DNA from: Antedon mediterranea
Lineage: Eukaryota > Animalia > Echinodermata
Reading direction: 5' to 3'
Length of the DNA stretch: 64,000 bases
NCBI RefSeq assembly: GCF_964355755.1
Contig: NC_092671.1
Span: 15,557,742-15,621,741 of the forward strand
In this document: piece after piece, positions 6,001-56,772 of the stretch
Position numbering within the stretch: position 1 is the stretch's first letter
Layout: the number at the start of each line of letters is the position of its first letter
The notes under the pieces: generated by a model
Seen by the model: the letters and a program-made list of their open reading frames with translations, nothing else
Database searches by the model: none
Told to the model about the DNA's origin: nothing
Made by a program: the position numbers and the translations under genes

Positions 6001-6698
6001 AAATTTTGTAACAAAATATTTAAGTTCTGCATGGGAGAAACATACTTAAAGTATCCCAATGATCGATTTATAGTATTGTATTGTTACTTATAAATAGTTT
6101 TGAGTTTAATTACAGTTTAGTTATTCATGTCTTTTTATTTTTCAATATGTTCTGTTTTGTTTCTTGGACCGCACCGCATATATTGTGAGTGCCACCGATT
6201 CAAAGGTGCATGGTCAACAAACAAATAAATAAATAAATAAACTGGAAAAAATGTTGATTTCTTATAATATTATTGCTCTAATAGTAAGTACAATATTCTG
6301 AAAAATATTGTGTATAACAGATATTTCATATAAATATTTACAGAAAATTTATATGGAAAACAGTGATGAGAGCCAAGTGAAATAATTTAAATCCAACATA
6401 AAGTAGACAGCCAGAGAACGATGACAGGCAATTAGAAAATACTCCATATTCTATGTTGGAGCTAAATATTTCTTTGCTATTCATATTTACATTCTCACTT
6501 GTGTAGGTTGTGATAATTATATGTATGGACACAATTGTGAAGATGTATGTCAGTGCCTGAACCGTGCAGACTGCAATTCTGTTAATGGTGAATGTCTGTG
6601 TCAACCAGGATTCCAAGGTCACTACTGTGAAAACCGTAAGTCACTATCTTATCTAAAATATATGAAATAATTTCAAGTCTGTTCACATAAAGATTTAG

Positions 6699-6729
<31 letters not shown>

Positions 6730-18552: not shown

Positions 18553-23589
<5,037 letters not shown>

Positions 23590-23839
23590 CTTTTTAGCGA
23601 CTACACTGTAAGCTTCCAACAACTCCTTTCACCTACAACTTCCGGATTCAAAAACCCGTTAGTTTCACAGATCAACAATGGTAGGTGAATATACCGGAGG
23701 AAAAATAGTCAAATATTTTATTGCAATAATACTTTTATAAAATATATGCTCTATAAATGTAGCTGTTCAAACGTCGATGCCTAAGATTTTGTGTGATATT
23801 TTGTATGATTCATTCACTTGAATTTTAGATGACGTTCAC

Positions 23840-23950
23840 ATCGACGACAGCAGATATGGCGGAGTTCAATTTCTAAACGCCCCTTTTTCTAGTTCACTGC
23901 GCATGCAGTGACGTAATCTGTACGCAGCAATTGAAGTAACTGCCCCGGAT
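23840..23950 (-). promoter_or_regulatory. Candidate Rab11 core promoter / CpG-rich segment
   Basis: A local CpG cluster in otherwise AT-rich DNA, 250-350 bp upstream of the Rab11 ATG. It contains the palindrome CTGCGCATGCAG (NRF-1-like GCGCATGCGC core) followed directly by TGACGTAA (CRE/ATF-like). Confidence 0.3.
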
Positions 23951-25029
23951 GTATAACAATAGACAAATTATGCAGTAAATTTATAAAAACAAATTCCCTT
24001 TGTTACTTTTCTTTCCTTTAGAAATTATTGTAGGCCTAATAATAGGACGGAAATCTGCATTGATAATACTACGTGCTCAATTCATATAAAACACATTAAT
24101 GGTTTTATGATAATGCTTATTTTATAAAGTATCGTCATAGTTTATTTGTTTTATCTCATTTAAAATACCTACGATTATCATGCAAAACACAGCAACTTAT
24201 GTAAAACGTGTACACGAGAAGTTACTATTGATTCTCTTTCAAAAATGTTTCTTAACATCTGGAATGCAAATAACATAAACATACTAGAATAGTACAATGT
24301 TTTAGGCCTACTACATTTATTACGTGACAGACTTAATATTGAAAACTTTTGGGCAGATGCATTATATTTTGTACAACAAATACCATTCATTTTTGTTCCC
24401 CATGAAACTTTTTTAAAGATGATCAATCACTGTGATCTCTAACTGTTTAAATAATGTTTTATAGTAGAATAATATGGTGTGCTTCGCAAGTGGCCTCGGA
24501 CATCATTGTGGCCAGGATGGTTCGTTTGTTTCCTTTTGAGGTACGTCCCGGAACATCCGATCATGTCCACCATTACTGCTACACAAGCGAAGAGTAAACA
24601 TAGCTGTAAGCATATCACAACCACCAGGTATTTAAAACCATTATGGTGATTGTCTCGCAAAATAAATTTGCCTCTTCTATGACGAATTTTCCAAAAATTG
24701 CATATTATTTTAGGAAAAAATGTTCTGTAAAATTAATTCCTAAAATTCTAATACTGTATTTCATAATAAATAACATACATTTAGGCTCGACGGTAAATGT
24801 ATCATTCAATCATAATTTTAGGTGATGTTGTATTCGGGTCCTTGCATAAGTAAACAATTTCGCGTTTAGGTTACGCAATGCGCAATTCATTTAGGCCTAT
24901 TTATAAAAACCCGGAAACAACTGAAAATACATCACTTTCGTGCCTATGAATAACTAGAAATAGAAACCCATTTCAATAATTAAATCAACATTTTAAAAAC
25001 TAGGACAACACAATCCAAACTCATCCTCC

Positions 25030-25204
25030 TTAAGTGTTCTGATAGCTTAGGTTTTTGCCGTATGGATCAGAGCGCACCCAAACGTAATCGTAACGTTTAC
25101 GTTGTTCATAAAAATAGCAACCAGCCATACAACAGCAACATACAACGCCCACGAACGTAACGAAACTGACAATGCTAACAGCTACCACAACTATTAACCA
25201 TACT
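25030..25204 (-). CDS. Small Cys-rich TM protein exon 3 (TM, CCCC, tail, stop)
   Basis: Acceptor ttcattttcag|agtatgg; stop TAA at 25032-25030. Confidence 0.55.
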
Positions 25205-26222
25205 CTGAAAATGAAAGTATATTCACATTATTATTATTATTATTATTTCATTTTATGTGTTTAAAAATTATAATATATTATTTATTAAATGATGCGTTTC
25301 TTTCGTTTCCACATTAATCAACACACATCTTCTTTCTTGGATGAGGACATGGCAAAATCAGCATGTCATGTTACAAGAGTAGTCAAAACAATAGGCCTAT
25401 AGATTATCTAATAAAAATCCTAGAAAGTAGGAAACATTTTGCCATTTTGTTCCCTGACTGACTACTCTTTAGAATTTTAGAGGCCAATTAGGCTTAAAAA
25501 TATTGTCTCCCACCCCTGACAAAAAATGTTGTTTGTTGAATATGCCATTTTCTAATGTCATTATTAACTTGAACCAATTGGATGGTAAAAATAATTTTTT
25601 AAATTGACAGTGCCGTCCAATGGAGGTTTTTGCTTGATAATTATTTTGTCTTTTCATATAGTGGTATAAGTAGTAGTATTAGGTCTTTTTATGATACCAA
25701 CATTTTTAATTTTAATATTAAATAACGAATTATTGTTCATGTTTTTGGACCATCATCTTTGATATTACACTTAGGCCTATGGTTATGGTCATTTTTATTT
25801 GTTCGCCGCTCTGTCTATGTCTTATCTGTCGTTCGTTGTCGATCGTTTCTTTAATAAAAAAGAACATTTTTTTAAATTGAACTTACTCGTATGATTCTAC
25901 ACAACATGAATCATGGTTATTGATTTTACAGCACTTTGTTTCTGACGGTGAATCATCTGGTCGTGGACAAATAGGAACGGTAAAACCGTTCGGACATTGG
26001 TCAGACAGAGTATCTATACAAAAAAAAATGCATTTGGAAGCAGATATAAATGTAGCGAAAAAGTCATTAACCTTTTCATATTGTACGACGAAACTAGATC
26101 TGTTCCGATAATGTACTAGGCTAATATATACTGTACTATAATTATTAATAAACTGGTGCCTTAATATAGAAGTTACCTGTAATCAAAATGAATATCACGA
26201 TGCATATTGGAACGAATTTCAT
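25030..26222 (-). CDS. Small secreted/single-pass Cys-rich membrane protein, 115 aa, unknown family (architecture loosely CYYR1/Shisa-like)
   Basis: Three minus-strand exons with GT-AG introns and continuous phase: 26177-26222 (MKFVPICIVIFILIT, signal peptide), 25887-26013 (DTLSDQCPNGFTVPICPRPDDSPSETKCCKINNHDSCCVESYE), 25030-25204 (EVWLIVVVAVSIVSFVTFVGVV-CCCC-MAGCYFYEQRKRYDYVWVRSDPYGKNLSYQNT then stop). Total 348 nt. A TATA-like GATAAAAAGG lies on the minus strand at about 26398-26407. Confidence 0.55.
25887..26013 (-). CDS. Small Cys-rich TM protein exon 2 (6-Cys ectodomain)
   Basis: Acceptor ttttttttgtatag|atactctg; donor tacga|gtaagt. Confidence 0.5.
26177..26222 (-). CDS. Small Cys-rich TM protein exon 1 (signal peptide)
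   Basis: ATG at 26222; donor ttacag|gtaactt. Confidence 0.5.
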
Positions 26223-26397
26223 CTTTCTTTGTTGTATTTAAAGTTAACAAATATATACGACGTTTTTAAACAAGAGAGTGTTCTAACAAGGAAGTAAAAC
26301 AGAAAATATAAGTTTACTGTACTCACATCTTCCTGTTATTCGAGAGTACGCTTCACTGCACCACCGAGTTCGAAATACAGTAAGTAAGTAAGTAGAA

Positions 26398-26407
26398 GGA
26401 CGCCACC
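26398..26407 (-). promoter_or_regulatory. TATA-like box upstream of the small Cys-rich gene
   Basis: Minus strand reads GATAAAAAGG, about 180 bp upstream of the ATG. Confidence 0.3.
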
Positions 26408-27038
26408 TTTTTATCGTCGGCTTGTAATTAGATCATTATTATCATTTTACAACAATATTTTGTAAGTTTATTTATATTTTTTAATAAGAAATAAATATTT
26501 AAAAATAAAAGCAACCTTTTTTATTATATTATCTATTATTTCAGTGAATATTTGATATGATTATCTTATTATAAAAAAAAAAAAAAAAAACAATGTTGAA
26601 AAGACAAACCGGTCACTTTTAAATTTTGTAAAAACGTCATTGAGTTGTTCGTCGTCGATGGTGTTGGTGCGGTGGATCGTCAGATAGATAGGCCTAGGAC
26701 ATATAGGCCTAGGTGAGTTACTAAATTGCGTATAATATGAACTTTTTCTTAATTTTACAATAAGCGTACATGATGGGAGAAAAGTTTAGGTTTGAATTAT
26801 GGTAACCATAGGCCTAGCTAAGCCCTAATTAGTAATAATAATTATAAATCTATCGATTGGTTGGTCTTTTTTAAAAATCTTTATGCCTAGGGCCTAGGCC
26901 TAGCAGTAGCTAGCTGCCCTAGGGCTATGGCTAGGGCGGCCTAATACTAATTATAGCTAGGCCCTGGCTGGCTGTGATGGCCTATCTATTTAATTATAAT
27001 ATCACCTAGGCTAGACCTGAGCTTATTAGGCCTGAGTA

Positions 27039-30016
27039 GGGCGCTACTGCAGTTTCGCACCACACCGTGGTATCTTCGATTTCTCACCTAAACTTTCGTT
27101 TTTTACACTCACAACATAATATTATGTAACATGTTTATACGATTCGACCACTTACGAAGTAATTTTTTTAAAATAACAATACTTTTCAAAACATTTTAAA
27201 CAATACTGAACTCGCTGTCAACACACTGCGAAATGTTCGCCATCTTATATTTATCACTTAATTGCCAGAATTTATGCTTCATTTTACCCCAAAAATTGTA
27301 GAAACTATAGAGGGCAGTGTTATAAACGCTTACACATATAGGCCTACCCTATTTAGTTTTGAAAAGCAAGAAATGTTTTCAGCTGGCGAAATAAAGGTTA
27401 AATTAATATTTAATTGTTAGTATTACTATTAATATTTATATCGCCGTGCTGGGGTAGCACTAACATTTCATTTTGTTTAGCCATTTGGCGAAAGTCAAAA
27501 TATTTTTTTTAGTCAAATCAGTTTATCTATAGTCAAACTGGCTAAAGTCAAATTTTTTTATTTAGCCAAATGAATCGGTTTATAGCCAAAATTTAAAATT
27601 TTTGAAATATAGTGGTAAAAACATTTTAGTCAATTTATCTATGTCAACAGGTCTATACACTGTTCCCTGAAGATTTTTGTAAGGCATTGAGATAAAGAAC
27701 CATGCCTAAATCACTGTATGATTAAAAAAAATATTTTTTTTGTATTTTTTTTACATGATCAAAACAATTGTTCAAATTGTTTTTTAATCATACAGCATTC
27801 ATACAGTTATCAATTTAATAAGAAACATTTTACAGTTTTCTGAAATCCCCTGAACGCTATGTTACTTTTGTTTTTTACGCTTGGCTGGTCATGTTTGCGT
27901 GTGACGGCTTCCATGGCGTACCAGGCGAAAATCGTGTCCTAGAATCACTCAGAATCACCGCCGCGCAGCCGGTTAATGTTTTTAAATTGGGTATGCTCAA
28001 GAGGTGCGAAAGTGCAGAACCACCGGCCTAGGCCTACATAATTATGTACAACAACGCAACGGTCTATCGTATGCTAAAAATATTGAGGAAAATTCCTAGC
28101 AAACGAACACTTGTATCGTTGTTAAACGTAAGATAATATAGGCCAAAGCACAGAGTACACGTACGTCAAGGCTGCGCCGAAGCGTTTCTGTCAGGGCGAG
28201 AAATTTATCCCAATTATTATTTATTTACACAACACAGAAGCCGGCGGCCGGCCCCGCTCAGATGCACGTGTGTGTTTAGCTAAATCCCCGTTAGACTCTA
28301 CCATTTCCCGCATGTTGTTTTGTTTACACTGACGCACGAGCGAAGTTTATTAAGGGTAAAATATGAAACTACATTAAATTGGAAGACTCTAAAATGCATA
28401 ACGCATACATTTTTCATTTCGATAAGATTAAGACGTCATTCATCGAAGATACTATACAGTAATGTTTCTTTTTAATCTGAAAAGTACACCCCTATCGAAA
28501 TATAGACAATCCCGGTAATTAGCCGACCGTCGGCTACGTAGTCGATCGTTTGTGCAGCGCACAACACGTGATAGTTTGGGTAGACTTCATCATCCATGTG
28601 TCGTGTAAAGTCTGTCTCTCTGTGCAGTCTACCTCTGCTATCTCCATCTTCGAAATAACAAAGAGACGCCTGGTACACCGAAACAAGTTGACGAAAAATG
28701 GAGCTTGAAGTAAACAACGTGATAACGAACAAAATAAATGCTTGGAGATCGACAAATGGACCTTTTAGTTGGACTTTATGCTTTCGCCAAAATGATTATT
28801 GAATTATCTATTTTATCATATGTCATCGCCAAAATGGCTAAAGTAGCCGTTTTATTTTTCGCCAATCTAGAAACGTTTTCGCCCATGGCGACTTGGCGAT
28901 CGGCCAGTGCGAGCATAGCCGTGGTTAGGATTCCGGCACCGGAACTCAACTGCCCACCATTAGGGAATCCGACACGCTATTGTGCATGCCCAGAGCTCTC
29001 GGAAGTGAATTATAGCTTGTGCCACACACCACACTAGTACCTGAGAGGATTTACTGTAGCCTATTTAGTCGTTGCGCGAGCAAGAGAGCGATGGATAAAA
29101 CTTGGCCTAGGCCATACATGAATTAATAATTAAAATACGACTACTTCACGCATTAAAATAATTATTATGATATTAATAAGAATCAGTATCTATCTACCGT
29201 AAGAATCGTAATGCTGTAGTAGCATTGCGACCCCCAGTTTTTTAAACATCCACGCGGTGGCTGCCGTCAACAAATTAACTTGTGATTGCATGTTATGTAC
29301 AGTTATAATGCGTTATATGAAAAATCATAAATCTAGTCAACTCATGTAATTATATAATTCATAATTATATGAAGTTTATATATGAATGAAGCAACCACTT
29401 TTTAATTACAAAATAAATAGGCCCACTGGTCACGTCTAGCTGGTAGGCCTAGCCTATAGTATTTACTATTAGTGGATCCCGTATTAGTTGGCATCTACGC
29501 TAGTTCGCCCCGTGGCGGAGCTATGAAATGATCCATCGCTGTTGATAAAGTATAGAGTCGCCGATTACCGGCTCTCTGGGCATGCGCAACAGCGTTTCGG
29601 ATTCCCTAACGGTGGGCAGTTGAGTTCCGGTGCCGGAATCCTAACCACGGCGTATTTATATTAATGGTTCCTATCAATGTTTTATGTACGGACTCATATC
29701 GTCGCCGTTTTGATATGTACAGCTGGTTCTTTATAAAACCACTCTAATTTGCAGTTTAAAAATAAAAACAGAAAATAAAACATACATTGATTTCTGGCAA
29801 TTTTCTGAATCTAAAATGGCCACAGTTCAATCGAAGTTTTCGCGAAAAAAGGAGTTGTTTTGAAAGGCATTTTTATTGTGATAAAGGTAATATAACGGTG
29901 GCTAAATCATGGGAACATGTTACATAATGGCCCAAAATTGTATGATGTGAGTGCGAGAAAAAAATGAAGCAAGAAATCGAAGATATAACAGTGTGGTGCG
30001 AAACTGCAGTAGCGCC
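27039..30016. mobile_element. hAT-like non-autonomous DNA transposon, about 2.98 kb (TIR GGCGCTACTGCAGTTTCGCACCACAC), 8-bp TSD CTGAGTAG
   Basis: 27039 gggcgctactgcagtttcgcaccacac ... gtgtggtgcgaaactgcagtagcgccc 30016. The flanking octamer ctgagtag is present on both sides. There are sub-terminal inverted repeats (28900-28990 versus 29565-29650) and internal palindromes (27715-27795). No intact transposase ORF. Confidence 0.75.
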
Positions 30017-30390
30017 CTGAGTAGGCCTAGACTAGCCTACCTAGCTTCTTAATCTTACTAATTAATAGCATGGTGGTCTGGCTATAATTTGTGTATGATT
30101 TGACAAATCATTGATTTGAAACATTTTTTTTCAACTTAAATTTAAAATTTGAATCAGGCCCATGGCCATGGGCCATACATAGCCTAGGCCCTAGATAGGC
30201 TAGTATGCAACAAAATATCTTATGCAGTATTACTATTATAGGCTATTTATTTTGATGAGAAAAATCAAATGGCAAATGCCTATTCTATAACATTCAGATA
30301 ATTTACTTTCTTCTTTATTATCATAGATAGGGTAGCCTAGTAGGTTTCAGTTTTGGATTATTTTTTTCCAGGAAGAAAATTGTTTAAATA

Positions 30391-33400: not shown

Positions 33401-36400
33401 TTTGCCCCATTTCACTCATAAACATTCAATAATTATAATGAAGGTTTATGAGTGCAATAGGGCAAATAATTTTATGAGGTGAAAAATGAAAGGTTACATT
33501 TTCACGAGGCGAATCTGAATGAAAATAGATCATTTCATCTTTCCCCGAATTAAATTACAACATCGTCATGTGTTCTGGCTACTCACTGTGACCCACAATC
33601 GTCCAATCAAATGACAAAAATCGAATTAGGTGTGCTATAAAAAGATAACCAAAAGTACATTTTTATTATAGACATAATTCACCTAAGTATAATGTATATC
33701 TTTTCTTGTAGAAACGTGTGTTTGTTAGTGGTTTGACTGAAGAAGTTGTTAATAATGCGGATAAGATAATTGACCTATTAAAGAAAGGGGACCGTAAGTT
33801 TACAGTAACCTCTTTTTTAACAGTTAAAAAATGTATCTAATCTGGTAGAAGATATGTCAATACACACCTAGGTTAACTCTGTTTTATACACGTAAAGCTG
33901 ATCATAATCATATACTAAGTTATAGTGTGATGTCCCCAAATATGGTAGTGATATGACTTTATCGTGTCTATATATAGGTACATCACATTTTTTTGTCACA
34001 TAAAGTTTGATAGTGTTGACAGAGCTTTACATCCATTAACCACGATATAACTCTGATAGCTTTCAGATGTACTGTGCATCCAATGTAACTTTAAAATGAT
34101 ACATTAGTTAGTCAAACAATTCCCATTGGTGGTATCTCAGATGTTTAACCGGTATATGTTGCGCTAGAACAGAACTGCGAGGTAACTCTGATAGTGGAAA
34201 GAGTGTGAAACATAGCTTAATACCATATATCCTCTTGTATAATCCCACCCCCATTGAACACGAGATTGGGCACACTTTGGAGGGTGGGACTATACCTGGG
34301 GAAACCCTGGTTCAGGAAAAAGATGTAAAAAGAAAAGTATTTCTTGTAAAACCTCATCTAAACTGGCTAGAGAGCCTACATCCAGACGAAAAGTCAATAC
34401 TGCAACTATACCTAGGGATGTGCCTTACAAAGAATAGGGGGTTAGACCAGAAGTGGGATTAAACCAGAGGACATACGGTATAGAGTTCTGCGGTGTGACG
34501 TCACAACGATAGATGGCGCTGCGTGGTTGCAAGCCAACCAAAAAATGTGTTCAACACTACTATACTATGTTGATAAACTATATACATCTGTATTTCTATA
34601 AAATTATGTATCTTAGCTTGATTTTTTTTTAACTTAAACTGTAGTTGAAGAATAAATAGATTATTAAAAACAAATATTTAATGATCTTTTGAAATCTTAG
34701 TTTGTTTTTATTAATAATTATTAAGTTTTAAAATGACTAATCAATAAGCCTATTCCAAACCATTGGAGTCACTCGGGCTGGTTGCATGCAGCACCACCTA
34801 CCATCGTGACGTCAGCACAGCAGAACTCTATGTATCATTATCAACCTTTTTTTACAGAACAACGACACGTCGGACGGACAAATATGAATGAACATAGTAG
34901 CAGATCACATACTATTTTCTGTATTGTAAGTCATTTATTTGATAAAAGTTATTTTTTAGACATATAATTGTACAATAATTCATTGAATTCTGGCCTGTAT
35001 TTATGATTTTAAGTGGCTCGTAATATTGAATATTCTATATTATATTTTCCCATTCTGGGTAACATTCATTGATAACAGAAAGAGAATTTGGTTGGAAGTT
35101 CATGATTCATCTATCTACTTGTAGATTTCAACCACATCCACTCCATTGCATCAATACTTTTTCCTATTGTACTATATGCCTACTGTATTTGCTAGATCTT
35201 AATATTTCATTCTAATTCATAGGTTATTGAATCACGTGAAAGAACCAATAATCGCCAGTCATATGATGGAGCTGTTAAAGTTTCTAGACTAGTAAGAATA
35301 CAATAACTTTCTAAATTATTTTAACTAGAACAGAATGAAACAAAGTTTTAAAGTAGTTTATGTCGGTTTTTGTTGGCTAAAATCTGTTTTGAATGAGTCT
35401 TAAATTTATCTAAAATGTTATTTTATGTTTGAAGAATCAAGGAACTTGCCAATGATTATAAATCATTCTGATAATCATAATCATACAGATATATAAATAG
35501 TACTAACAAAAAGTTGTTTTTTTTTAGAACCTTGTTGATTTGGCTGGTTCTGAGCGAATAAATGAAACAAAAGCAGAAGGTGTGCGTTTGAAAGAAGCAT
35601 GTAACATCAACAAGAGTTTGTTTGTATTGGGACAAGTGATCAACAAGCTTAGCTCTGGATCAGATTATATTCCCTTCAGGGACTCAAAGCTGACTCGAAT
35701 CCTGCAACCATCACTTGGAGGCAATGCAAAGACTGCCATAATTTGTACTGTCACACCGGCAGCCATCGATCAGACGCATAACACGCTTCAGTTTGCCAGT
35801 CGGGCCAAGACCATCAAGAACAAACCAGAAATGCATGAAATCTTGTCTGATGAGGCGTTGCTAAGACGATACAAAAGTGAAATTGAAAACCTCAAAAAAC
35901 AAATTGATCAGGTAATTCATTTTTTAAAAAAGATTATGGATTGATAAGTCCAATCTTAACATAGGTTATTTGTCAGGTAATTCATTTAAAAAAGATTATA
36001 CGGATCTAGTCCAATCTTAACATAGGTGTTTGTTGATTAGATTTTTACCGTTTATATAATATTATTCTCAGTTTGATAAACAGGATAAACTAAAAGATGG
36101 TTGGCAATCTCTAGAGAATGAAAAGAGACAAATGGCAGAGGAAAATCAAAAACTGATTGAAGCTAGAAATCGTTTGGAAACAATGGTTATATCAGGCCAG
36201 GGTGAATCCATTCCGAAGAGCAAGAAAAGGGTAAGATTTAAAATAAACAATTGATACCATACTGATGTTGATATAGAAGCCACCTCTGACACAAAATGAT
36301 CAATTCCCAATACATTTTAGTTTCCATATAACCTCACTCCCTATTTACTTTACCAAATTTAATTTTCAAGGGTGGGTTGTCCTTCCTATTAGTAAGGTAT

Positions 36401-39400
36401 AATGCATACATTTTGTAAAGCTTTGTTACTGAGGTAATCATATAAAGAATTGTAAAGGTAGAAATTGTATTATATTTCTGTTAAATCTTAATTACAAAAG
36501 ATTTTGTTATTTAGGAGGTTTGTTTGCTATGTGAGCCAGTTTCATTTTAGAAAAATCCAATTTTGAACACACTCTAAATAAAAGAAAATACTTTTTTTCA
36601 TTTTGTTTTTAGCCAAACCGTCGTGAAACCTGGTGTCCTGGAACAAGAAAGTTTCCCCTTCTAGCATCAGACCCTATTGCTGCAGCCGCTGCAGTGGCAG
36701 CAGAGGTTGGATCATTTGATGTCGCTACCACTTTTAAATTTTCTCCAAAAGCAAAAAGTAGCATAAGCTCTTGCAGTGTCAGCAGTGATGGTATGTTATA
36801 TTTTGCTTATATTACACACAAATAAAAATTAAAGAAAACAACATACATACTATGTAGTCAAAAACACAAAATGTTGATGACATGATTGGTCATTTTAGGT
36901 TACATAAAATCTAGTGAATGTCATATCAGTGTGTAAGTACTACTGTGGTATGAATTTACAGAATTTTCAGATAGCAAGTTTGAAAAGTTTGCTGAAGAAT
37001 GTTCAGGCTTTTTGTCTGATGAATCTATACCCAAAAAGAAACGACGACGGGCTGTGCATTTTTCTGAAATACCACCTATAATGGATGTTAGTATGTCTCA
37101 TGCACAAGAAATTGGCTGTCAGACAGAGGTATGTCAACCCAGTCTAAATTGCTTTCAGGTGTAATTAAAAGTTTAATTAAGGCTTGAAAGATGTATTGTC
37201 CCTTTGACTAATTCCAAAAAAATTTAAAGAAAAAGATTTGAAAAAAGGTGGGTCATTTTGAAGTATCATAATAGTTATTAACTTTCACCAAAAATTAGTC
37301 GGGAAAAAAAATCATTTAACTGAAATACAGACATATTTTGGTTCAAAAAATAACTTTGACTTCCAGTCAAAGTTTTTGATCAAAACATATCTCATAATGC
37401 AACGCCCTTATTTGGCTACTCTGTATGCATAATTATAAAACTTCCTCGCGATCTGTGTGAAAAGACCTTCTCAACCGTGAAGAGTTGTAAACAATCCTAA
37501 TTAGCATCATGCATAATGCATACTCATGGTTTGAAATCTTTGTTTACTTTCGCTCCTGACGATTTTCTAGACGAAATGTAATAAATTAATTTACCTGTTA
37601 ATTACGTACACTTGTATTTTCAACTTAAAGTGAATAACTTTAATATTACTTTGATATGACCAATTTAAATTTAGAATGTTTAGACCTTCATTTTTTGTTT
37701 TTAAAGGGACAATACATCTTTAACACACATAATACATTTAAATAAGATGCGTAATTTTCCTTCTGTATCCACAAACAAATTATTCATGCGGTTTTTCACC
37801 TCTATTTTTTTTGTTTCTAAAGCTCTGTCTACATTATCAAACCATATGTGACAACAAAATGTGATGTGACCATATATAGACATGATGATATCACTATCAC
37901 ATATCACTATCATATTTGGGCACCTCACACTTGTTTTGTCAAACTATTTTTATAGTGTAGACAGACCTTAAATCTGTCACTGGCAACCATTTTTTCAGCC
38001 AAATATTTTTATTTTTTATATATTTATTTCTAGAATGTAATAGATCATGATGTGGCAAGTTCCCATGAAGAACTAAAAGAGTCCATCATTATCTGCGAGG
38101 CACTGATGCAGGAGAAAGATGAACTAAAAAGTGAAAATGAATTAATGCACCAACAGATATTGCAATTAAAGGAAGAAAATCAAGAAATTAATACTAAATA
38201 CATAACAATGTAAGCTTAAAAATATAAACAATAATATTTAAAACAATGTAATTATAAATATTGCTGTATGTTTTACTCTTCTATCAATTGTGCATTACCA
38301 TGTTACGAGTAGTTGAATCATTAAAGTTTCGACGTACGCAAAGCAGAAACTGTTTTGATTGTACGTCTATGGCATCATGCTTACATTGTCGGTTCCCACT
38401 TGGGACACGCAAGGTTTTGTTCTTATGGAACGTTGCGTTGATACATTGCATCTACGTCCTTGCTTTGCGTCCTAGTGGAAACCAAGGTTTATTATGCGTG
38501 ATAATGTTATTGTTGATATTTATAAATATAATGAAAATAAGAAATATATAGTGTTTATGTTGCAGGAATTAGCTCCCTCTCAAAATAAGTCTTTTTTATC
38601 ATGCTTACTAGGTTAGATTTTAATAATCAACTTTTTGTTTTCTCGAATTACAAAGTATTCTTTTGTAATATGATTATACAATTTATCTTTGGAATTGATT
38701 TAATGGCAGGGAAATAGAAGGTAAAAACGTGAAGAAGGAACTTAGTCGACTCACAGAAGAATTCATGGAATTGAAAGAATTTACAAGTATTGAACAAGAA
38801 GTTACTGATACTCACTATAAAGATATTGAGGTATTATTATATAGTTTGTATTTATTATTTATTCGCACTCAAGACCAACCAATTCTGGCTTATGAGTCAA
38901 CATTATAAACCATTTTAAAAGAAAAATAAAAACATACAAAAAGGCATACAATACGGTATATACATCCTTAAAAATACTATACAACCTGTTGATATTTAAA
39001 TGTCATGCTCTAATGGAGTAAAACATTATATATGTATTATTATATTTATTCCATTGTTTTTTGTTTTCCCTAGATAAAACATCAATCAATCGTGAAGGAA
39101 CTTAACCAAACAATTGAAGGAAAGGAGAAGGAAATTGGAAGGCTGAGAAGATCAATCTGTATTCCTATACCTTTACAACCTAGCTCTGATCAGGTAATAA
39201 TTCACATATGTTTTTGAGTCCGTGAACTCCCTGTTAATAAATATATGAAACATTTTAGTTAGTCAGGGCTTGTCATTGTCCCGACCTAGAATTTGCACAA
39301 CTGTTTTAAAAGAAATTGAGTGAAGAAGCGCATCACAATGACCCAATGAATTAACATGACTTGTTCCTAGGTCATATGTGCAACAAATCGAAAGAACCCT

Positions 39401-42400
39401 ATTAGTTTGACTTTTTCATCTGTTTGAGTATTTTAACTTTATGAATCCTCTTATAGTTTTGTTTGAATGTCGTCTATATATTTTTGTATCGTTTATAAAA
39501 GGGCGTCTTCAAGTCAGTTGTACTGCTACTACTACTACTTGTAAAACAAAGTTGAATTGCCTTATAGTGCATGCTTTAATTTTCTTTTATTTTTGTGACA
39601 GACTGGAAATGAAGAATCTTCTCAGAAAATGAAGGAACTGGAAATGAGTTTAGAAGATGCCGAGGCGGTTCTAATGGATACCAACAAAGCATTATCTGAA
39701 ATGAAAGACATTAATGTGGTATTAGAGAAAGAGATGGTAAGGAACAATGTACAATAAAGATAATGTTAATTACTCTTCATTATTCAGTACCTAGTCTAGT
39801 ATACTGTGTCTAATAATATCCCAGGATTGTTGGCAAGTACACATTCCCATCAGGGCTCGATTTATCTTTTTCATGTTGCTAGCCCACTGGGCTAGTTCAC
39901 TGTAGATTTCACTAGCCCATACATTATTTTACTAGCCCACTCTTATTATCGCACCGTGATAGCAGGGCCGCCATATAAATGAATTCAGGCATTTTGTACA
40001 ATAGAGGGCGCACTAATCTAAACGCTCGAGAATTGCTACACATTTACATACAAACTGTATTAAACTATTATTGCATGAAAAATTACACAAAATTGTATTT
40101 CTTTATTGTTCACATCCCGGTTCACATAAAAATTAACTGGCGCTACTGCAGTTTCGCACCACACCATTATATCTTCGATTTCTCACCTAAATTTTTCTTT
40201 TTCACACTCACAACATAATATTATGTAACATGTTTATACGATTCGACCACTTACGAAGTAATTTTTTTTAAATAACAATACTTTTCAAAACATTTTAAAC
40301 AATACTGAACTCGATGTCAACACACTGCGAAATGTTCGCCATCTTATATTTATCACTTAATTGCCAGAATGTATGCTTCATTTTCCCCAAAAAATGTAGA
40401 AACTATAGAGGCCAGTGTAATAAAATCCGATTACACATATATAGGCCTAGGCCTATTTAGTTTTGAAAGGCAAGAAATATTTTCAGCTGGCGAAAGAGAG
40501 GTTTAATTAATATTTCATTATTAATATTAGTATTATTATTCATGTTAATAGGTCCTATCAATGTTTTATGTACAGACTCATATCGTCGCCGTTTTGATAT
40601 GTACAGTGAGCTAGCTGGTTCTTTATAAAAACCACTCTTTGCAGTTTAAAAATAAAAACAGAAAATAAAACATGCATTGATTTATGGCAATTTTCTGATT
40701 CTAAAATGGCCACAGTTCGATCGAGGAAATAGAGCTGTTTTGAAAGGCATTTTTTATTGTGATAAAGGTAAATATAACGGTGGCTAAATCATGGAAACAT
40801 GTTACATAATGACCCAAAATTGTATGATGTGGGTGTGAGAAAAAAATTAAGCGATAAATCGAAGATTTAACAGTGTGGTGCGAAACTGCAGTAGCGCCAA
40901 TTAACTTTGCATTGCGACGCATAGTCTATTTCATGCTCAACATATTCACAGAATCGATTTATTGAGGTCTTTTTGTTGTTGGGCTTCAACCTAGCCAAGA
41001 AAACTAATTAGATTCTGTCTACCTTAGGCTAGAGGCCTAGGCCTAGAGCCTATTATTATAGTAGGGTAGCTAGGATAGACCTACCTACTAGGCCTAGATC
41101 GCATTGGAGCACCTGGCCTACTGTACCAAAATGGTACTATAGGCCTAGCTAGGCCTAGGTAGTATCTAGCTAGGCCTAGCTGCTGCTGAGCAGCCATCAC
41201 GATGCCAAACGATGGCTTTTGATTCTATCTAGGCCTCCTACGCATATTATAAAATATGGCCTCCATGGCCTACCTACAGGGATAGAGCCAGCCACCCGGC
41301 CCTACAAAATATCCCTAGCTTTGATCTGTGACAACCAGGCCTGATGACAAGACTAGACAAGTTATTTTTAACATTGGCAAAATTCTACTACATTTGGCCA
41401 ATCACAGTTCGTTATTTATGGTCATATTTTTGTGACATGTTTGACCTGATAATGAAGCTCCGCCTACTTCACAATAACCAGGGTGACAAAAACATAAATG
41501 GCCAATCATAATTCGGGAAATTTGTTTGATTATGAGAGGCTCCGCCTACATCATCACTTGTTATGGCCACAGCAGCAGCGCGCCAGTGGTTTTTTTTTAT
41601 GATGTTGCCAAGACATATATGTCTTTTATGCTGGAGTTATTTTTATGAGGTCATTTCGTCCCAATTTCGAGTTCCCACAACCTACTAGCCATCCGGGCTT
41701 AAAGGAAGATACTTTAGGTAGCCCGGAGCTGTTTTTACTAGCCATTGTACGCCGGGCTAGCACTAAATCGAGCCCTGCCCATACACTCATTCCCATACAC
41801 TCATTCCCATACACTCATTTAATAAAGTCTCTTAAATACAGTACTACTATAACTTTATAGTTATCTCTTAATAATATTGATATCATTTTATATCAGGGAT
41901 GTCACCACGGCCCCGTCCACCACTCGCAATTTCCGACCACCATTTTCATGACGCCAACCACCACTATATTTACGCATGTAGATAGTAGTCTATTGTTCGT
42001 AACCTACTACTAATGCTACGATGTATTGTTATTATGTAATCGATCTTGTGTGTTTGTCTGTTTGTTAGCAGGATTACTCAAAAAGTAATTACAAGATCTT
42101 TACCAAAATAAATGTAAAGATAGATATGTGGTCAAGGACCATTCCATTAAATTTTGGGACCATTTGAAACCACGGTTCCAATTCTGGACCACTTTTTTGT
42201 ATACTTTTCAGACGTGCTAGTGTTAAAATAAGAGATAGGGCATCCCATGGTGGTGAAATTAGGTGGTATCTCTCATCTAATTGGTGCAGATTTTTTTAGT
42301 CAGATATTGGTACCTAGTTCATCTAACCAAATGTCTCTGGCCTGCCTGTCTGGTAGCCGGACAACCCCCCCACCCGATTTTTTTTGGGGGGAGGGGGGGT

Positions 42401-45400
42401 GTCGTCGACCACCACTCATGCTGGTTACATCCCTGTTATATATAGGAAAGTTTGAAAAAAAGATTACAGCAACTGGAGAATGAGAAGTCCGACTTCCAGG
42501 TGAGCATAGATATTCAGAAGGATAAGAGTGATCGTATGTGTACTGAATTAAGAACAGAATTACAATTGACCTACCAAGAACTTTCTCAGGTCAGAGGTGA
42601 AGAAGTTCATATACCAGAAAATACTCAACATTCGGTACAAGAATTACACAACACTATTGAACGGTAAATATATATGAATGAACTATGGAAGATCTATTTA
42701 TTTACAAAAGATTTAATGTGTGAATTATAAAGCCATGTCTTGTTGAAATATAAATTTAACATTTTCTTTTTAGTCTTACAAAAGAAAGTGTGACTTTGAA
42801 AGAAGACCTACAGTTAAGCATTACAAGTGTAAGTTTTCTTGATACCATTACCACATTTTTTTTCCGGCCATGCACTAATAAATTGAAATAATCAAATATA
42901 GAGATTTGATTTTGCAGAGTGTTGAGATTCAAGAAGATCTTATTAACTGTCAAGAGGAATTGGAACAATGTTCAGACAAGTGCAAGAAATTAAAGACTGA
43001 AGTTTTAACCCTCCACAAGGAACTGGAATGTTCCAGAAAGGTATCAGAAGAAAGAGTTACTCAACCTGAAGTAAGCAACCTACAAGATCAAGAGATGTAT
43101 ACACAAGAGATTGAAGCACTTAATAGCAAAATACTGGCTCTTCAAGAAGAACTGGAATGTTCCAGAAAGGTATCAGAAGTTAATCAACCTGAAGTAAGCA
43201 ACCTACAAGATCAAGAGATGCATACACAAGAGATTGAAGCACTTAATAGTAAAATACTGGCTCTTCAAGAAGAACTGGAGTGTTCCAGAAAGGTATCAGA
43301 AGTTAATCAACCTGAAGTAAGTAACCTACAAGATCAAGAGATGCATACACAAGAGATTGAAGGACTTAATGGCAAAATACTGGCTCTTCAAGAAGAACTA
43401 GAGTGTTTCAGAAAGGCATCTGAAGAAAGAGTTACTCAACCTGTAGTAAGTAATCCACAAGATAGCCAAGAGATGCATAAACAAGAGATTGAAGCACTTA
43501 ATGGCAAAATACTGGCTCTTCAAGAAGAACTTGAGTGTTCCAGAAAGGCATCAGAAGAAGGAGTTACTCAACCAGAAGTAAGCAACCTACAAGAGATGCA
43601 TACACAAGGGATTGAAGCACTTAATAGCAAAATACTGGCTCTTCAAGAAGAACTGGATGGTTCCAGGAAGGCATCAGAAGGAAGAGGTAATGAAAGGGAA
43701 GTAAGCACCATTCAAGAGATGCATAAACAAGAGATCGAAGCACTTAATAGCAAAATACTGGCTCTTCAAGAAGAACTGGATGGTTCCAGAATGTTGGCAG
43801 AAGAAAGAGTTACTCAACCTGAAGTAAGCAACATACAAAACCAACAGATGCATACACAAGAGATTAAAGCACTTAATAGCAAAATACTAGCTCTTCAGGA
43901 TAAACTCCAGCAGAAAGGGGAGAATGCACATGAAGAAGAACTAGAGATTGTCAAGAATATTGAAAAAAAGACAACTGAGGATAATTTGACAGTTTTGACG
44001 ATGCAGGAAACTCTACAGGAACGTGAAAAAGAGTGTGAAACTCAGAGGATTATCATAGTTTCTCTTCAAAAAGAAATTGAGCAACTGTCTTCTAATGATA
44101 TGGAATTACAAGAAAAGGAAGCATGTGATATAAATGGAAGCAATCAGGGGACTAGTAACATGGTTCTTCAAAAAGAATCGGATCACACTGCTGCAGAAAA
44201 GGAACATCCAGACAAAGAATCTGACATAATTTGTAATTTGCAAATGCAATTGAATGTGAAGACAAATGAATGTGAAACTTTAAATGAAATGGTGGTCTCC
44301 CTTCTTGAACAACTAGAAAAAGACAAAGAGTTTAAAGAAAGTGCTGAGGAGAGTGACTTAAAAGTCAAAGTTATAGAGCTTGAACGAAGATTGGAATTAA
44401 GTAGAGATTACGAGGTAGAACTTGAATCTCAAGTAGAAAATTTAAGAGAACTAACTATGATCAATGAATATGAAAATCCAGAAATTAATTCAAAGGAAAC
44501 GTTAATGGATGTTGCTGAGAACGATCCAGAATTGATTTCAGAAAGGGATACTACTTCAGGTAATAAATGCTCAGAAGAAGAAGATATCAGTTTAGATGAA
44601 AGTGAGAATATAACATCAGCCAGTATGGCTACAGTAGAATATGGTGAAAACAGGAAAAAGAATCTTGAATCAAAAGTTACTGAATTACAGGTTCGACTAG
44701 AAGAGATGACAGATTTACTGACGGAAATGTCGAAAAAACTTGAGCACTCGGAAGAGATGCTGAAATTCTCAAAAGATTATGAAGTTGAACTTGAAAGGCA
44801 ATTGGAAGAAGCAAATAAGAGCAAGGAACAGCAGATGGAAATGTTTAATAGGGATCAAGCTGAGACAGAATCAAAATTGGCTGATATGGAAACCAAAGTA
44901 TATGGCTCAGAGGCTAGTTATACAACTATAGAGTCAAAACTGACTGATGCAGAAGCCAAGTTGGTTTTTATGGAGTCTAATATAAGGGAAACCGAGGCGA
45001 AGTTTGCTGAAATGGAATCTAAGATTGTTGAGTTGAAATCAAAGCTTGCTGAATCGGAGGTTAAAGTTGAACAATGGAAGGTTGAAGCGGAAAGGAATAA
45101 ACGTTTGATTGCAGAACAGAGCATGAGCACTGATATGATGACAACACAGTAAGTTGATCTAAATATGAACTAGTATGAGCTTGTATGCTTTCTGCTTTAA
45201 AAATATGGTTCTTGAGACTACATATCTTCTAATACAGTATCTCTATATATTATTGTGAATACTGTGTTCAAAAAGATAATGTTTTTTATATATCCAGGCT
45301 TGAATCGTACAGACAGACTGCTGATCGTGCAAAGGGTGCACTTTTAGCTGAGAGCAACCGTGAGCTTGACCAGCAACGCAAGATTGAAACTCTTGAAAAT

Positions 45401-48400
45401 GCCCAGAAAGAGTCAGTAGCAGTTTTTCAACAGGCCAGTAAAGAAAAAGATGAGATTATTGCAGGTCTGGAGAAGAAGACCAAAGATCTATTGACCAAGT
45501 TAAGACAAACAGAAGCAGAGAGTGATCAAGCCACCCACAGGTCATTGCAGATGGAAAGAGAATCCCAGGTATAATTAATTATTTCAATTGTAAAATAGAT
45601 TACGGATAGAAATTGAACAGAGAATGGCCTATTAAAAAAATTACATTCATTTATACAAAGAAAATACAATTAACAGATTTACAATAAAAATCAGTACTGT
45701 ATAGATCATAAAAATACAATGTTATATTTCATCTTCTCTACCAGCCATGATGTTCTCGCATGTTATCAATGTTATGGTATACATACCTAACAAAAAGCTT
45801 GAAAAGCCTGCTATAAATGAGATCGCAGAAATTATCGAAGGTATTGAGTGTAGTCACCCTGAGGCGCTTGTAATTATCAATGGCGATTTCAACAGATGCA
45901 AGCTCAAGAAAACAACTGCCACATATTATCAGCATGTTACATGTAAAACGAGGGACAACGCGATTCTTGATTTATGCTACTCTAGTGTGAAGGATGCCTA
46001 TATTTCGACCCCACTACCGAACTTGGGCAAATCTGATCATAATTTGATTTTACTCAGTCCTAAATATCGCCCGTTAAATAAGACATGCCAACCAAAAATT
46101 ATTAATGTACGTAAATGGTCTCCTGAAGCCGAGGAAGCCCTGATAGCAGAATTTGAATCTACCGATTGGGATATTTTTACGGAGGATGAAGATTTGAATA
46201 GTATTACTTATGCAGTGAGCTCGTACATAAACTTTTGTATTGATAAATGCGTTCCAGTTAAAAAAGTGAAAATCTACCCTAATAACAAGCCATGGATCAC
46301 GAAAGGCGTTAAATTACTGTTGTGTGAGAAACGTAAAGCCTTTAAGATGGGCGACTCTAATCGTATGAAAATATTGACTAGAGAGATTAAATCTGAAATA
46401 AGGAAACAGAAGAACATTTATAGGAAAAAAGTTGAACATAACTTCAGGTCTAATAATATGAAACAAGTTTGGCAGGGTATTAAACTTATGAGTGGTTACA
46501 CAAACGGTGGTAATACACCCACCTCGATTCCGAATGTTACTGTGCAATATGTTAATGAGTTAAATGAATTTTATAACCGTTTTAATGTTCATGATTTTAA
46601 AAAAGAAAGAGAGGCCCTATTTAGCTTGTGTCGGGTGACTGAAGATGATCCCAAATTTAGTATAAGCATTTCTGATGTACATAGCGAATTCATGAAACTC
46701 AATTCATCGAAGGCTGCTGGGCCGGATAGAATCCCACCACGAGTACTTAAGGTCTGCTCTCCTCACCTTGATGGTATATTTACATTTATTTTCAATATGT
46801 GTCTTTCTTATCATGCGTTCCCGGATATTTGGAAACTTTCATGCATAATACCGGTACCTAAGAAACCTAAGATTAACAGCATGAATGATTTGAGACCCGT
46901 TGCACTCACGTCTGTCGCGATGAAAATATTGGAACGTATTATTTTAAAAATTATGCAACCTTATGCTGAAAAAGTGTTAGACCCGTTGCAATTTGCTTAC
47001 CGATCACTCCGTAGTACCAGTGATGCGATTTATTTTAAATTACATAAATTGTATTCACATCTAGATAATGTAAAGAAAGGCCACTCGGCACGTATTATGT
47101 ATTTTGATTTTCAGTCTGCGTTTAATACCATACAACCCCATATCTTAGCAGACAAAATGTTGAATATGGAGTTTCCCCGTCCGATTGTTCGTTTAGTTTT
47201 AAATTTCATTTGTGATAGAAAACAATTTGTTAATATTAATGGTGTTAAGTCAGAAATCGTAACCTCTGACACCGGTGTTCCTCAGGGTACTGTCAACGCA
47301 CCTAAATTATATTCCTTGTATACGGCCGATTACAGATCTTTAAATGATGAGCTTTGCCCCGTTGTTAAATTCGCTGATGACACTAGTACTATTGGTCTCA
47401 TAGTTTCAAACAATGATGAAAATTATCGTAGCGAAATACAAAGATTTGTAAAATTTTGTGACGATAATTATCTCCAAATAAATGCATCAAAAACAAAGGA
47501 GATGATCATTGATTTTAGGACTAAACATAAATTTAATTTTCAACCAATCACTATCAAAGGTAAAGAAATTGAAATTGTTGACCAGTACAAGTATCTAGGA
47601 ATTGTTTTCAATGATAAACTGAATTGGGGAGACCATATAGACTACATCAGCAAAAAATTAAATCCCAGAATGTATTGTATGAGAACTTTATATAAATTTA
47701 ACTCCTGTGATTTGATGTTACTTTCGTTTTATAGATCCGTTATATGTAGTGTTTGGACGTATTGCCTCTCCTGTTGGGCTGGTAATGTTACCGGAGGGAA
47801 TAAAGGACGCCTTGAAACTTTCATCCGTCGGGCTGGTAAAATGATTGGTCTGGAACTGCCTTCCTTTACCGATGTGCACCTAGAACACCTCCAGAAAGAT
47901 TTCGAACGCATTGAGTCGGATGCCTCTCATCCTCTCCACAAAGTGATCATAGACCAACTTAATCCAAGTGGTAGATTGAGGCTCCTCAGTGTGAAAACAA
48001 ATCGATTTGCTAAATCCTTTATTCCCTCCGGTATCATCCAGTACAACAGGAAGTCAAGAAGATAATTTTATCTTGTAATTTTTTAGATGTTTTTATATGA
48101 ATGGTTTTATGCTATATTTGTTTTTATTGTGTTTTCTTTGTTATTATGACGAGCAATGAATTTCCTTGTTGAGGATCAATAAAAGTTATCTTATCTTATC
48201 TTATCTTATGTAATATTTACTTTTATGTTTAAAGGACCTTCGTGATCGTGTAAAGGAGCTGGAGAATCACGCTTTTGATAATCGCCAGTTAACATGCAAA
48301 CAAGATATGGATCCTGCTAAGCTTGCACAACGTTTAAAACAAGTGGAGTTCAACCTTGATATAACAAAGCAAAAGGCAGATAAATTTGAGAAAATAAACA

Positions 48401-56671: not shown

Positions 56672-56772
56672 ATACATAACCTATGTAAATAATATGAATA
56701 ATTTATCTACCTATTAAAATCATTTTAATCAGTGTGTATAGGTCTAATATATATATATTGGAGAGAGACACA

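What the first reader, a model, noticed from the sequence alone, without database searches (positions are those of the whole stretch)
27039..30016. hAT-like non-autonomous element family with clean 8-bp target-site duplications, nested in another hAT-like element
A 2.98-kb copy (TSD CTGAGTAG) and a 0.76-kb internally deleted copy (TSD AATTAACT, 40139-40898) share identical 26-bp TIRs and 200-400 bp of sub-terminal sequence. The short copy sits inside a third element (39850-41777, TIR CAGGGCTCGATTTA). Intact TSDs imply recent mobility, so an autonomous partner transposase should exist elsewhere in the genome. TSD length assigns the family to hAT. The TIR sequence itself is not a canonical hAT terminus.
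Basis: partly seen in the sequence, partly recalled or inferred. Interest (0 to 1): 0.5.

Follow-up and report, generated by a model that had tools for sequence, protein, structure and literature searches.

The report
Small non-autonomous DNA transposon, nested insertions
Two copies of an ordinary 760-bp non-coding "cut-and-paste" transposon (a MITE) sit in what looks like a feather-star genome, one split by later transposon insertions; calling it hAT from the 8-bp duplication alone is not justified.

Summary
The perfect 26-bp terminal inverted repeat (TIR) GGCGCTACTGCAGTTTCGCACCACAC occurs exactly four times in the window. It bounds two elements, 27040-30016 and 40139-40898, each flanked by a perfect 8-bp target-site duplication (TSD).

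The interpretation needs two corrections.

1. The short copy is not an internally deleted derivative. It aligns end to end with the two ends of the long copy. The long copy is the same ~760-bp element carrying a 2,211-bp insertion (27442-29652) with its own 9-bp TSD, TATTTATAT. That insertion is probably two nested elements.

2. An 8-bp TSD does not assign the family to hAT. The termini begin GGCGC, not the CAG/TAG start typical of hAT. A 5'-GG terminus, a TIR of at least 24 bp and an 8-9-bp TSD are the published structural signature of Merlin. Mutator-like, P and other 8-bp superfamilies are not excluded.

No transposase is encoded here, and no further copies could be retrieved, so the superfamily stays unresolved.

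The "third element" (39851-41777) is a real transposon with subterminal repeats. It is flanked by a 5-bp repeat, not 8 bp.

This is ordinary MITE biology in a transposon-rich animal genome. Interest is low.

The parts
27032..27039 (.). Left TSD (CTGAGTAG) of the long MITE-A copy
   Evidence: Read directly. Identical to 30017-30024. Recovered by the TIR+TSD scan.
27040..27441 (+). Long MITE-A copy, left part. Includes the 26-bp left TIR at 27040-27065.
   Evidence: 92% identical to short-copy positions 1-402. TIR has 0 mismatches.
27433..27441 (.). Left copy of the 9-bp TSD (TATTTATAT) made by the nested insertion. This is MITE-A sequence.
   Evidence: The short copy has a single TATTCATGT at the same site.
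27442..29652 (.). Nested 2,211-bp insertion inside the long MITE-A copy. Probably element X interrupted by element Y'. No coding capacity.
   Evidence: Absent from the short copy. Longest ORF is 99 aa. ORF fragments from this stretch gave no Pfam hit.
27442..27448 (+). Outer tip (CGCCGTG) of X's left TIR, separated from the rest of X by Y'
   Evidence: Joined to 28924 onward it restores CGCCGTGGTTAGGATTCCGGCACCGG, identical to the reverse complement of the right end.
27449..28917 (.). Y': a ~1.47-kb non-coding element inserted in X's left TIR. Boundaries are approximate.
   Evidence: Flanked by GCCGTG (27443-27448 and 28918-23), or by the 8-bp T[C/A]GCCGTG with one mismatch. Sub-terminal inverted motif TTTAGCCATTTGGCGA at 27476-27492 and 28826-28842.
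28003..28024 (-). Solo terminus-like sequence GGTGGTTCTGCACTTTCGCACC, related to the MITE-A TIR (18 of 22 bases)
   Evidence: (I6, D10). The core CTGCA[C/G]TTTCGCACC occurs 5 times against 0.06 expected.
28924..29652 (+). Remainder of X, a ~736-bp MITE with ~80-bp TIRs (arms 28918-28995 and 29574-29651)
   Evidence: 78-nt inverted repeat, 95% complementary (I1).
29653..30016 (+). Long MITE-A copy, right part. Starts with the right copy of the 9-bp TSD (29653-29661) and ends with the 26-bp right TIR (29991-30016).
   Evidence: 88.5% identical to short-copy positions 399-760. TIR has 0 mismatches.
30017..30024 (.). Right TSD (CTGAGTAG) of the long MITE-A copy
39851..41777 (.). Outer host element: 1,927 bp in all, about 1,159 bp without the MITE-A insertion. 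14-bp TIR CAGGGCTCGATTTA. Flanked by CCCAT at 39846-39850 and 41778-41782.
   Evidence: (I12, D7, D4). Five of the 8 ACTAGCC words in the window lie within 100 bp of its ends. No Pfam hit.
40131..40138 (.). Left TSD (AATTAACT) of the short MITE-A copy
40139..40898 (+). Short, complete MITE-A copy of 760 bp. TIRs at 40139-40164 and 40873-40898. An imperfect inverted repeat extends about 79 bp inward.
   Evidence: I1, I2. No open frame longer than 76 codons in any of the six frames.
40899..40906 (.). Right TSD (AATTAACT) of the short MITE-A copy

Best explanation
"MITE-A" is a ~760-bp miniature inverted-repeat transposable element (MITE), that is, a non-coding, non-autonomous cut-and-paste DNA transposon.

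**Inferred mechanism.** A DDE-type transposase encoded elsewhere in the genome binds the 26-bp TIRs and probably the ~80-110 bp of imperfectly inverted sub-terminal sequence. It excises the element and re-inserts it at a cut staggered by 8 bp. Gap repair then produces the 8-bp TSD.

**Shown directly.**
- Both copies are full length.
- The 2.98-kb copy is a 757-bp copy that later received a 2.2-kb insertion with a 9-bp TSD.
- That insertion is best read as a ~736-bp MITE with ~80-bp TIRs (X), itself interrupted in its left TIR by a ~1.47-kb element (Y').
- The short copy landed inside an older non-autonomous element with a CAGGG terminus, sub-terminal repeats and a 5-bp flanking repeat.
- The region therefore records at least five DNA-transposon families inserting one after another.

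**Superfamily of MITE-A.** It is not determined. On structural hallmarks the best fit is Merlin (about 0.4), ahead of hAT (about 0.2) and of Mutator-like, P or another 8-bp superfamily (about 0.4 together).
For: - **Real repeat.** Four perfect 26-bp TIRs against 0 expected. Perfect 8-bp TSDs at both copies, and these are the only such structures in the window.
- **Short copy is complete.** It aligns end to end with the long copy. Breakpoints coincide with a 9-bp direct repeat in the long copy and a single site in the short copy.
- **Non-coding.** No ORF longer than 99 aa in the long copy. No open frame longer than 76 codons in the 760-bp unit. No Pfam transposase domain in ORF fragments of at least 60 aa across 11.6-42.6 kb. 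No Rfam family or tRNA.
- **Structure of X.** A 78-nt inverted repeat at 95%. A perfect 26-nt terminus is restored once Y' is removed.
- **TIRs kept intact.** All four TIRs and all four TSD copies are unchanged although the copies differ by K2P 0.078. P is about 0.005 if all divergence arose after insertion. This is as expected if TIRs were kept intact by the need to be mobilised.
- **Merlin hallmarks.** TIRs of 24-462 bp, a conserved terminal 5'-GG, 8-9-bp TSDs, and "all other Merlin families" start with GG (PMC8101967). A Euglena Merlin copy shows an 8-bp TSD followed by GGTACTTG....
- **hAT for comparison.** 8-bp TSD, TIRs of 5-27 bp, and an example terminus CAG(G/A)GGTAGGC (PMC3517528).
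Against: - Only two copies were seen, so TSD length and target preference rest on n = 2.
- No autonomous relative and no further copies could be retrieved. Collection scans for the TIR found nothing relevant. Two composite protein searches returned nothing and were probably uninformative.
- "GG + 8 bp" is a weak signature. From memory, Mutator-like TIRs also often begin with G/GG.
- A 26-bp perfect TIR is still within the hAT range of 5-27 bp.
- The X/Y' dissection is a model. Y' has no clean TIR, and its flanking duplication is either 6 bp perfect or 8 bp with one mismatch.
Confidence: 0.8

Rival explanations
1. MITE-A is a hAT-superfamily MITE, mobilised by a BED/DDE hAT transposase with an unusual terminus.
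For: - 8-bp TSD at 2 of 2 copies.
- The perfect TIR of 26 bp lies within the hAT range of 5-27 bp (PMC3517528).
- CTGAGTAG fits the Hermes/Ac-type target pattern nTnnnnAn (PMC10368747).
- AATTAACT fits the Buster pattern nnnTAnnn.
- hAT is common in animals. The neighbouring outer element has a CAGGG terminus.
Against: - The terminus is GGCGC, not CAG/TAG.
- The two TSDs each fit a different hAT target consensus, and neither fits both.
- The inverted-repeat similarity runs about 80-110 bp, longer than typical hAT TIRs.
- No hAT domain was found in the ORF fragments scanned (11.6-42.6 kb).
Confidence: 0.2
2. MITE-A belongs to another superfamily that can make 8-bp TSDs, such as Mutator-like, P, Zisupton or Novosib.
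For: - The TIR starts with G and extended imperfect TIRs are present. From memory, both are common in Mutator-like elements.
- The same locus holds a Mutator-like-looking MITE, X, with a 9-bp TSD and ~80-bp TIRs, so such transposases may have been active in this genome.
Against: - From memory, Mutator-like TSDs are usually 9-11 bp and vary within a family. Here both copies have exactly 8 bp.
- From memory, P-type termini start with CA.
- No positive evidence was obtained for any of these superfamilies.
Confidence: 0.2
3. The 2.98-kb copy is the ancestral form and the 0.76-kb copy arose from it by internal deletion.
For: Deletion derivatives are a common origin of MITEs. The two copies share both ends.
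Against: - The extra 2,211 bp is bounded exactly by a 9-bp direct repeat, which is present once in the short copy.
- The extra DNA ends in its own ~80-bp inverted repeats.
- It encodes nothing.
Confidence: 0.03
4. It is not a mobile element. The similarity comes from a local segmental duplication or chance inverted repeats.
For: Only two copies, 10 kb apart and in the same orientation.
Against: - Homology stops exactly at the TIR tips.
- Each copy has a different perfect 8-bp flanking duplication.
- Flanking sequences are unrelated.
- Zero chance matches to the TIR are expected.
Confidence: 0.01

Closest known systems
Merlin superfamily (eukaryotic relatives of the bacterial IS1016/IS1595 insertion sequences), non-autonomous derivatives
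   Same: 8-bp TSD, a TIR of at least 24 bp (here 26 bp perfect, about 80 bp imperfect), and a terminal 5'-GG. All three are published structural hallmarks (PMC8101967; example).
   Different: No DDE_Tnp_IS1595 transposase is linked to these TIRs. Beyond GG there is no similarity to the one Merlin TIR inspected. Merlin was reported as sparse in echinoderms, with 8 sequences in 2 species.
hAT-superfamily MITEs, for example Mar in Drosophila willistoni
   Same: Non-coding, sub-kilobase, 8-bp TSD, mobilised in trans (PMC3517528).
   Different: The hAT MITE terminus read here begins CAG (Mar: CAG(G/A)GGTAGGC), with an 11-bp TIR. Hermes has 17-bp TIRs (PMC10368747). MITE-A begins GGCGC, and its two TSDs do not share one hAT target consensus.
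hAT5 group (hAT elements with 5-bp TSDs). This comparison is for the outer element 39851-41777 only.
   Same: CAGGG terminus, sub-terminal short repeats, and a 5-bp flanking direct repeat. hAT5 is defined by 5-bp TSDs (PMC12730594).
   Different: There is only one copy. The 5-bp repeat lies next to a 14-bp tandem repeat, so it could be coincidental. No transposase is present.
Mutator-like MITEs. This comparison is for the nested element X only.
   Same: 9-bp TSD and long (~80-bp) TIRs. The family features are from memory.
   Different: The terminus is CGCCGTGG, there is a single copy, and no transposase is present.

Membership tests
MITE (structural class of non-autonomous TIR transposons) | Short (under about 800 bp), with no coding capacity | tested here: met
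   760 bp. No open frame longer than 76 codons. No Pfam hit.
MITE (structural class of non-autonomous TIR transposons) | Conserved TIRs and flanking TSDs, with more than one copy | tested here: met
   Four perfect 26-bp TIRs. Two different perfect 8-bp TSDs. Only 2 copies were seen, and the genome-wide copy number is unknown.
hAT superfamily | 8-bp TSD | tested here: met
   2 of 2 copies.
hAT superfamily | Short TIRs with a CAG/TAG-type terminus (YARNG consensus, from memory) | tested here: not met
   The terminus is GGCGCTAC. The length of 26 bp is within the 5-27 bp range. The example hAT MITE terminus is CAG(G/A)GGTAGGC.
hAT superfamily | Target consensus nTnnnnAn (Ac/Hermes type) or nnnTAnnn (Buster type) | tested here: inconclusive
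   CTGAGTAG fits only the first pattern and AATTAACT fits only the second. n = 2.
hAT superfamily | An autonomous relative with the same TIRs that encodes a hAT transposase (BED zinc finger, DDE, hAT dimerisation domain) | not testable with these tools
   The source genome is not searchable here. No such domain was found in the ORF fragments scanned (11.6-42.6 kb).
Merlin superfamily | 8- or 9-bp TSD | tested here: met
   8 bp at both copies. Criterion from PMC8101967.
Merlin superfamily | TIRs of 24-462 bp with a conserved terminal 5'-GG | tested here: met
   A 26-bp perfect TIR starting GG on both ends of both copies. Criterion.
Merlin superfamily | An autonomous relative that encodes a DDE_Tnp_IS1595 transposase | not testable with these tools
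   A composite search that included echinoderm Merlin transposases returned nothing, but the candidate list was saturated at 8000, so the result is uninformative. No such domain was found in the ORF fragments scanned (11.6-42.6 kb).
Mutator-like elements | TSD usually 9-11 bp and long TIRs (from memory) | tested here: inconclusive
   MITE-A has 8 bp at 2 of 2 copies, below the usual range, and imperfect TIRs of about 80 bp.
hAT5 group (outer element 39851-41777) | hAT-type terminus with a 5-bp TSD | tested here: inconclusive
   CAGGG terminus and CCCAT on both flanks. Single copy next to a tandem repeat. Criterion from PMC12730594.

The most novel reading that the evidence does not exclude
MITE-A is the footprint of a fairly recently active Merlin (IS1016-like) transposon lineage in a crinoid. 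A 2021 survey found only 8 Merlin sequences in 2 echinoderm species, so this would be a notable record for the phylum. Less likely, it belongs to an undescribed superfamily with 8-bp TSDs and GG termini.
Probability: 0.35. Interest if true: 0.25.

Novelty: new member of a known kind. Interest (0 to 1): 0.1.

Why it matters
The wider significance is small.
- **Annotation.** The finding gives a clean full-length 760-bp consensus candidate for a MITE family. It also gives a nested-insertion chronology useful for repeat annotation of an echinoderm, probably crinoid, genome: the outer element was hit by short MITE-A, and long MITE-A was hit by X, which was hit by Y'.
- **Method.** It is a worked example of why TSD length alone should not be used to assign a non-autonomous element to hAT.
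- **If Merlin is confirmed.** It would add a recently active Merlin lineage to a phylum where Merlin has rarely been reported.

Tried and rejected
1. **Further MITE-A copies in the window.** A sensitive blastn search of the window with the known copies masked found only AT-rich low-complexity hits.
2. **Copies in public collections.** Exact TIR scans of metagenome contigs and viral contigs found nothing. The prokaryote genome scan gave one 21-mer hit inside a GC-rich Xanthobacteraceae contig. The match does not extend, and about 0.3 such hits are expected by chance. A metagenome scan for the window's abundant Tourist-like MITE also found nothing.
3. **Copies via spurious predicted peptides.** A six-frame composite of MITE-A gave no hits. 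A composite of kinesin coiled-coil exons plus echinoderm Merlin transposases also gave none. In one search the candidate list was saturated at 8000 and even the query proteins' own database entries were not returned. I therefore treat both negatives as uninformative.
4. **More of the same genome.** The LINE ORF2 is not on record by exact sequence. The one Anneissia japonica locus fetched (L001, 16 kb) shares only the LINE, at 81.6% nucleotide identity, and none of the window's MITEs.
5. **Merlin supplements.** A search of the Merlin paper's supplementary sequences for the TIR gave only chance 10-mer hits.
6. **Rejected readings.**
   - A 10-bp TSD with a GCGC...GCGC TIR fits the long copy only, not the short one.
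   - An 8-bp TSD for the 2.2-kb insertion would offset its two termini by one base.
   - Transib or Helitron for the nested insertion: the terminus orientation or the presence of a TSD does not fit.
Full report
**Context**

The window is AT-rich animal DNA, about 32% G+C.
- It holds LINE reverse-transcriptase ORFs, a Ras/Rab-type exon and a kinesin motor exon.
- It has no tRNA and no Rfam family.
- The intact LINE ORF2 (45747-48065) has its best match, 81% amino-acid identity, to a protein of the feather star Anneissia japonica. The next hits are below 50%.
- The corresponding A. japonica locus shares only that LINE, at 81.6% nucleotide identity, and none of the window's other repeats.
- The host is therefore probably a crinoid, not necessarily A. 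japonica. This is an inference.

**The observation**

The 26-mer GGCGCTACTGCAGTTTCGCACCACAC occurs four times without mismatch, as two inverted pairs at 27040/30016 and 40139/40898. Shuffled sequence gives none.

Immediately outside the pairs lie perfect 8-bp direct repeats:
- CTGAGTAG at 27032-27039 and 30017-30024.
- AATTAACT at 40131-40138 and 40899-40906.

For the long copy alone, the G/C bases at the junction would also allow a 10-bp duplication with a GCGC terminus. Only "8 bp + GG...CC" fits both copies.

A window-wide scan for a perfect 12-bp TIR plus a perfect 8-bp TSD returns these two elements only. The element family, which I call MITE-A, is real.

**The long copy is not the parent of the short copy**

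The 760-bp copy aligns end to end with the long copy. Positions 1-402 match long-copy 1-397 at 92%. Positions 399-760 match long-copy 2614-2977 at 88.5%.

The extra 2,211 bp (27442-29652) is bounded by TATTTATAT on both sides, at 27433-27441 and 29653-29661. The short copy has one TATTCATGT at that position. This is the signature of an insertion with a 9-bp TSD into a full-length MITE-A. It is not a deletion in the short copy.

**Structure of the nested insertion**

The inserted DNA ends on the right in a ~80-bp repeat whose inverted partner lies internally: arms 28918-28995 and 29574-29651, 95% complementary.

Its extreme left end, CGCCGTG (27442-27448), joined to 28924 onward, restores a terminus identical to the right end: CGCCGTGGTTAGGATTCCGGCACCGG.

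The simplest model has two steps.
- A ~736-bp MITE with ~80-bp TIRs (X) inserted into MITE-A.
- A ~1.47-kb element (Y', 27449 to about 28917) then inserted 7 bp inside X's left TIR. It duplicated GCCGTG, or the 8-bp T[C/A]GCCGTG with one mismatch.

Y' carries inverted sub-terminal GCCAAAATGG-type motifs. It also holds a solo 22-nt sequence at 28003-28024 related to the MITE-A TIR. Y' has no clean TIR, so this part is a model rather than a demonstration.

**Coding capacity**

Nothing in the region encodes protein.
- The longest ORF in the long copy is 99 aa.
- The longest open frame in the 760-bp unit is 76 codons.
- ORF fragments of at least 60 aa across 11.6-42.6 kb hit only Ras and kinesin Pfam families, and no transposase.

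**The outer element at 39851-41777**

The 14-bp inverted repeat CAGGGCTCGATTTA is perfect. On its own it would be only weakly significant.

However, 5 of the 8 ACTAGCC words in the 64-kb window lie within 100 bp of the two ends. This is typical of transposase-binding sub-terminal repeats, so it is a genuine transposon.

It has no 8-bp TSD. Only CCCAT is repeated on both flanks, and the right flank is a 3x tandem repeat of CCCATACACTCATT. hAT elements with 5-bp TSDs exist as the hAT5 group (PMC12730594). "hAT-like" is therefore reasonable for this element, but unproven.

**Age**

The two MITE-A copies differ at 55 of 744 aligned positions (K2P 0.078), plus 8 indel events.

If all of that had accumulated after insertion, about 5.3 changes would be expected in the 136 bp of TIRs plus TSDs. 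None is seen (P about 0.005).

Part of the divergence therefore reflects different source lineages, with TIRs kept intact by the requirement for mobilisation. The insertions are younger than the raw 7-8% suggests. Still, "recent" is relative: the long copy has since been hit at least once, and probably twice.

**Superfamily**

An 8-bp TSD is compatible with hAT and with Merlin, whose published TSD range is 8-9 bp. From memory it is also compatible with P, some Mutator-like elements, Zisupton and Novosib. Repbase classifies non-autonomous elements by terminal sequence as well as by TSD (PMC4455052).

hAT comparison:
- hAT elements have 8-bp TSDs and 5-27-bp TIRs.
- Mar's terminus is CAG(G/A)GGTAGGC.
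- Hermes prefers nTnnnnAn targets and Buster-type elements prefer nnnTAnnn.
- MITE-A starts GGCGC.
- Its two TSDs each fit a different one of those patterns.

Merlin comparison:
- Merlin elements are described as having 24-462-bp TIRs, a conserved terminal 5'-GG and 8-9-bp TSDs. Every family examined starts with GG (PMC8101967).
- A Euglena copy shows an 8-bp TSD followed by GGTACTTG....
- MITE-A meets all three structural criteria.

These are weak criteria, the sample is two copies, and the defining feature, the transposase, could not be tested. I therefore lean towards Merlin (about 0.4) over hAT (about 0.2) and leave the superfamily unresolved.

**Mechanism (inferred from established cut-and-paste transposon biology)**

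A transposase supplied in trans binds the TIRs and sub-terminal inverted sequence. It excises the element and integrates it at an 8-bp staggered cut. Repair of the gaps creates the TSD.

**Attempts to extend the evidence**

Attempts to find more copies or an autonomous partner failed or were uninformative.

**Verdict**

This is a genuine but ordinary MITE family caught in a stack of nested DNA-transposon insertions in gene-flanking and intronic DNA. The "internally deleted" reading is wrong, and the hAT assignment is not supported by the termini. The finding is a new member of a known kind and of low interest.

Noticed in passing
window 22458-30029 and 40442-41178: The palindromic octamer TAGGCCTA occurs 27 times against 0.39 expected. 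Nearly all occurrences cluster in the 22.4-30 kb stretch and inside the outer transposon. It also occurs inside both MITE-A copies. The long MITE-A copy inserted within a TAGGCCT-GAGT-AGGCCTA quasi-palindrome.
   Followed up: partly
window 939-1073, 3371-3480, 4642-4768, 9757-9891, 33921-34032, 37814-37931, 50107-50246, 56772-56857: An abundant MITE of about 150 bp, with at least 8 copies in 64 kb. Its TIR is AGCTCTGTCTACACTATCAAAC and its flanks read TTA/TAA, which looks like a 3-bp TWA duplication of the PIF/Harbinger (Tourist) type. It was absent from the A. japonica locus L001 and from the JGI metagenome collection.
   Followed up: partly
window 42906-48065 (+): An apparently intact LINE. 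ORF1 is 748 aa and contains a 123-bp x7 in-frame tandem repeat at 43020-43897. ORF2 is 772 aa with an RVT_1 domain. Its best hit is 81% to an Anneissia japonica protein. It appears to lie in an intron of the kinesin-like gene, judged by eye from flanking coiled-coil ORF fragments.
   Followed up: partly
window 19451-20535 (-) and 21498-21743 (+): Rab11-like GTPase exons lie on opposite strands about 1.2 kb apart. The minus-strand exon abuts a 22-bp x26 minisatellite (19451-20034) that reads as an open frame. This could be an inverted pseudogene fragment or an assembly inversion.
   Followed up: no
window 58659-63860: A complex satellite array of about 5 kb. The 89-bp basic unit is itself palindromic (…GCGCAGA…TCTGCGC…) and is organised in 293-bp higher-order repeats with inverted segments.
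   Followed up: no
window 50308-51041 vs 51238-52546: A local tandem duplication at 95-97% identity duplicates a coiled-coil exon ([37 protein letters not shown]...) of the kinesin-like gene.
   Followed up: no
window 27714-27795: A perfect 16-bp inverted repeat, CTGTATGATTAAAAAA / TTTTTTAATCATACAG, with a 50-nt AT-rich spacer inside element Y'. It may be a tiny hairpin element or a further nested fragment (I9).
   Followed up: no
window 2635-9384 (+): A run of EGF/laminin-EGF-like cysteine-rich exons, apparently a MEGF-type gene. This was recognised by eye in ORF translations and was not scanned against Pfam.
   Followed up: no
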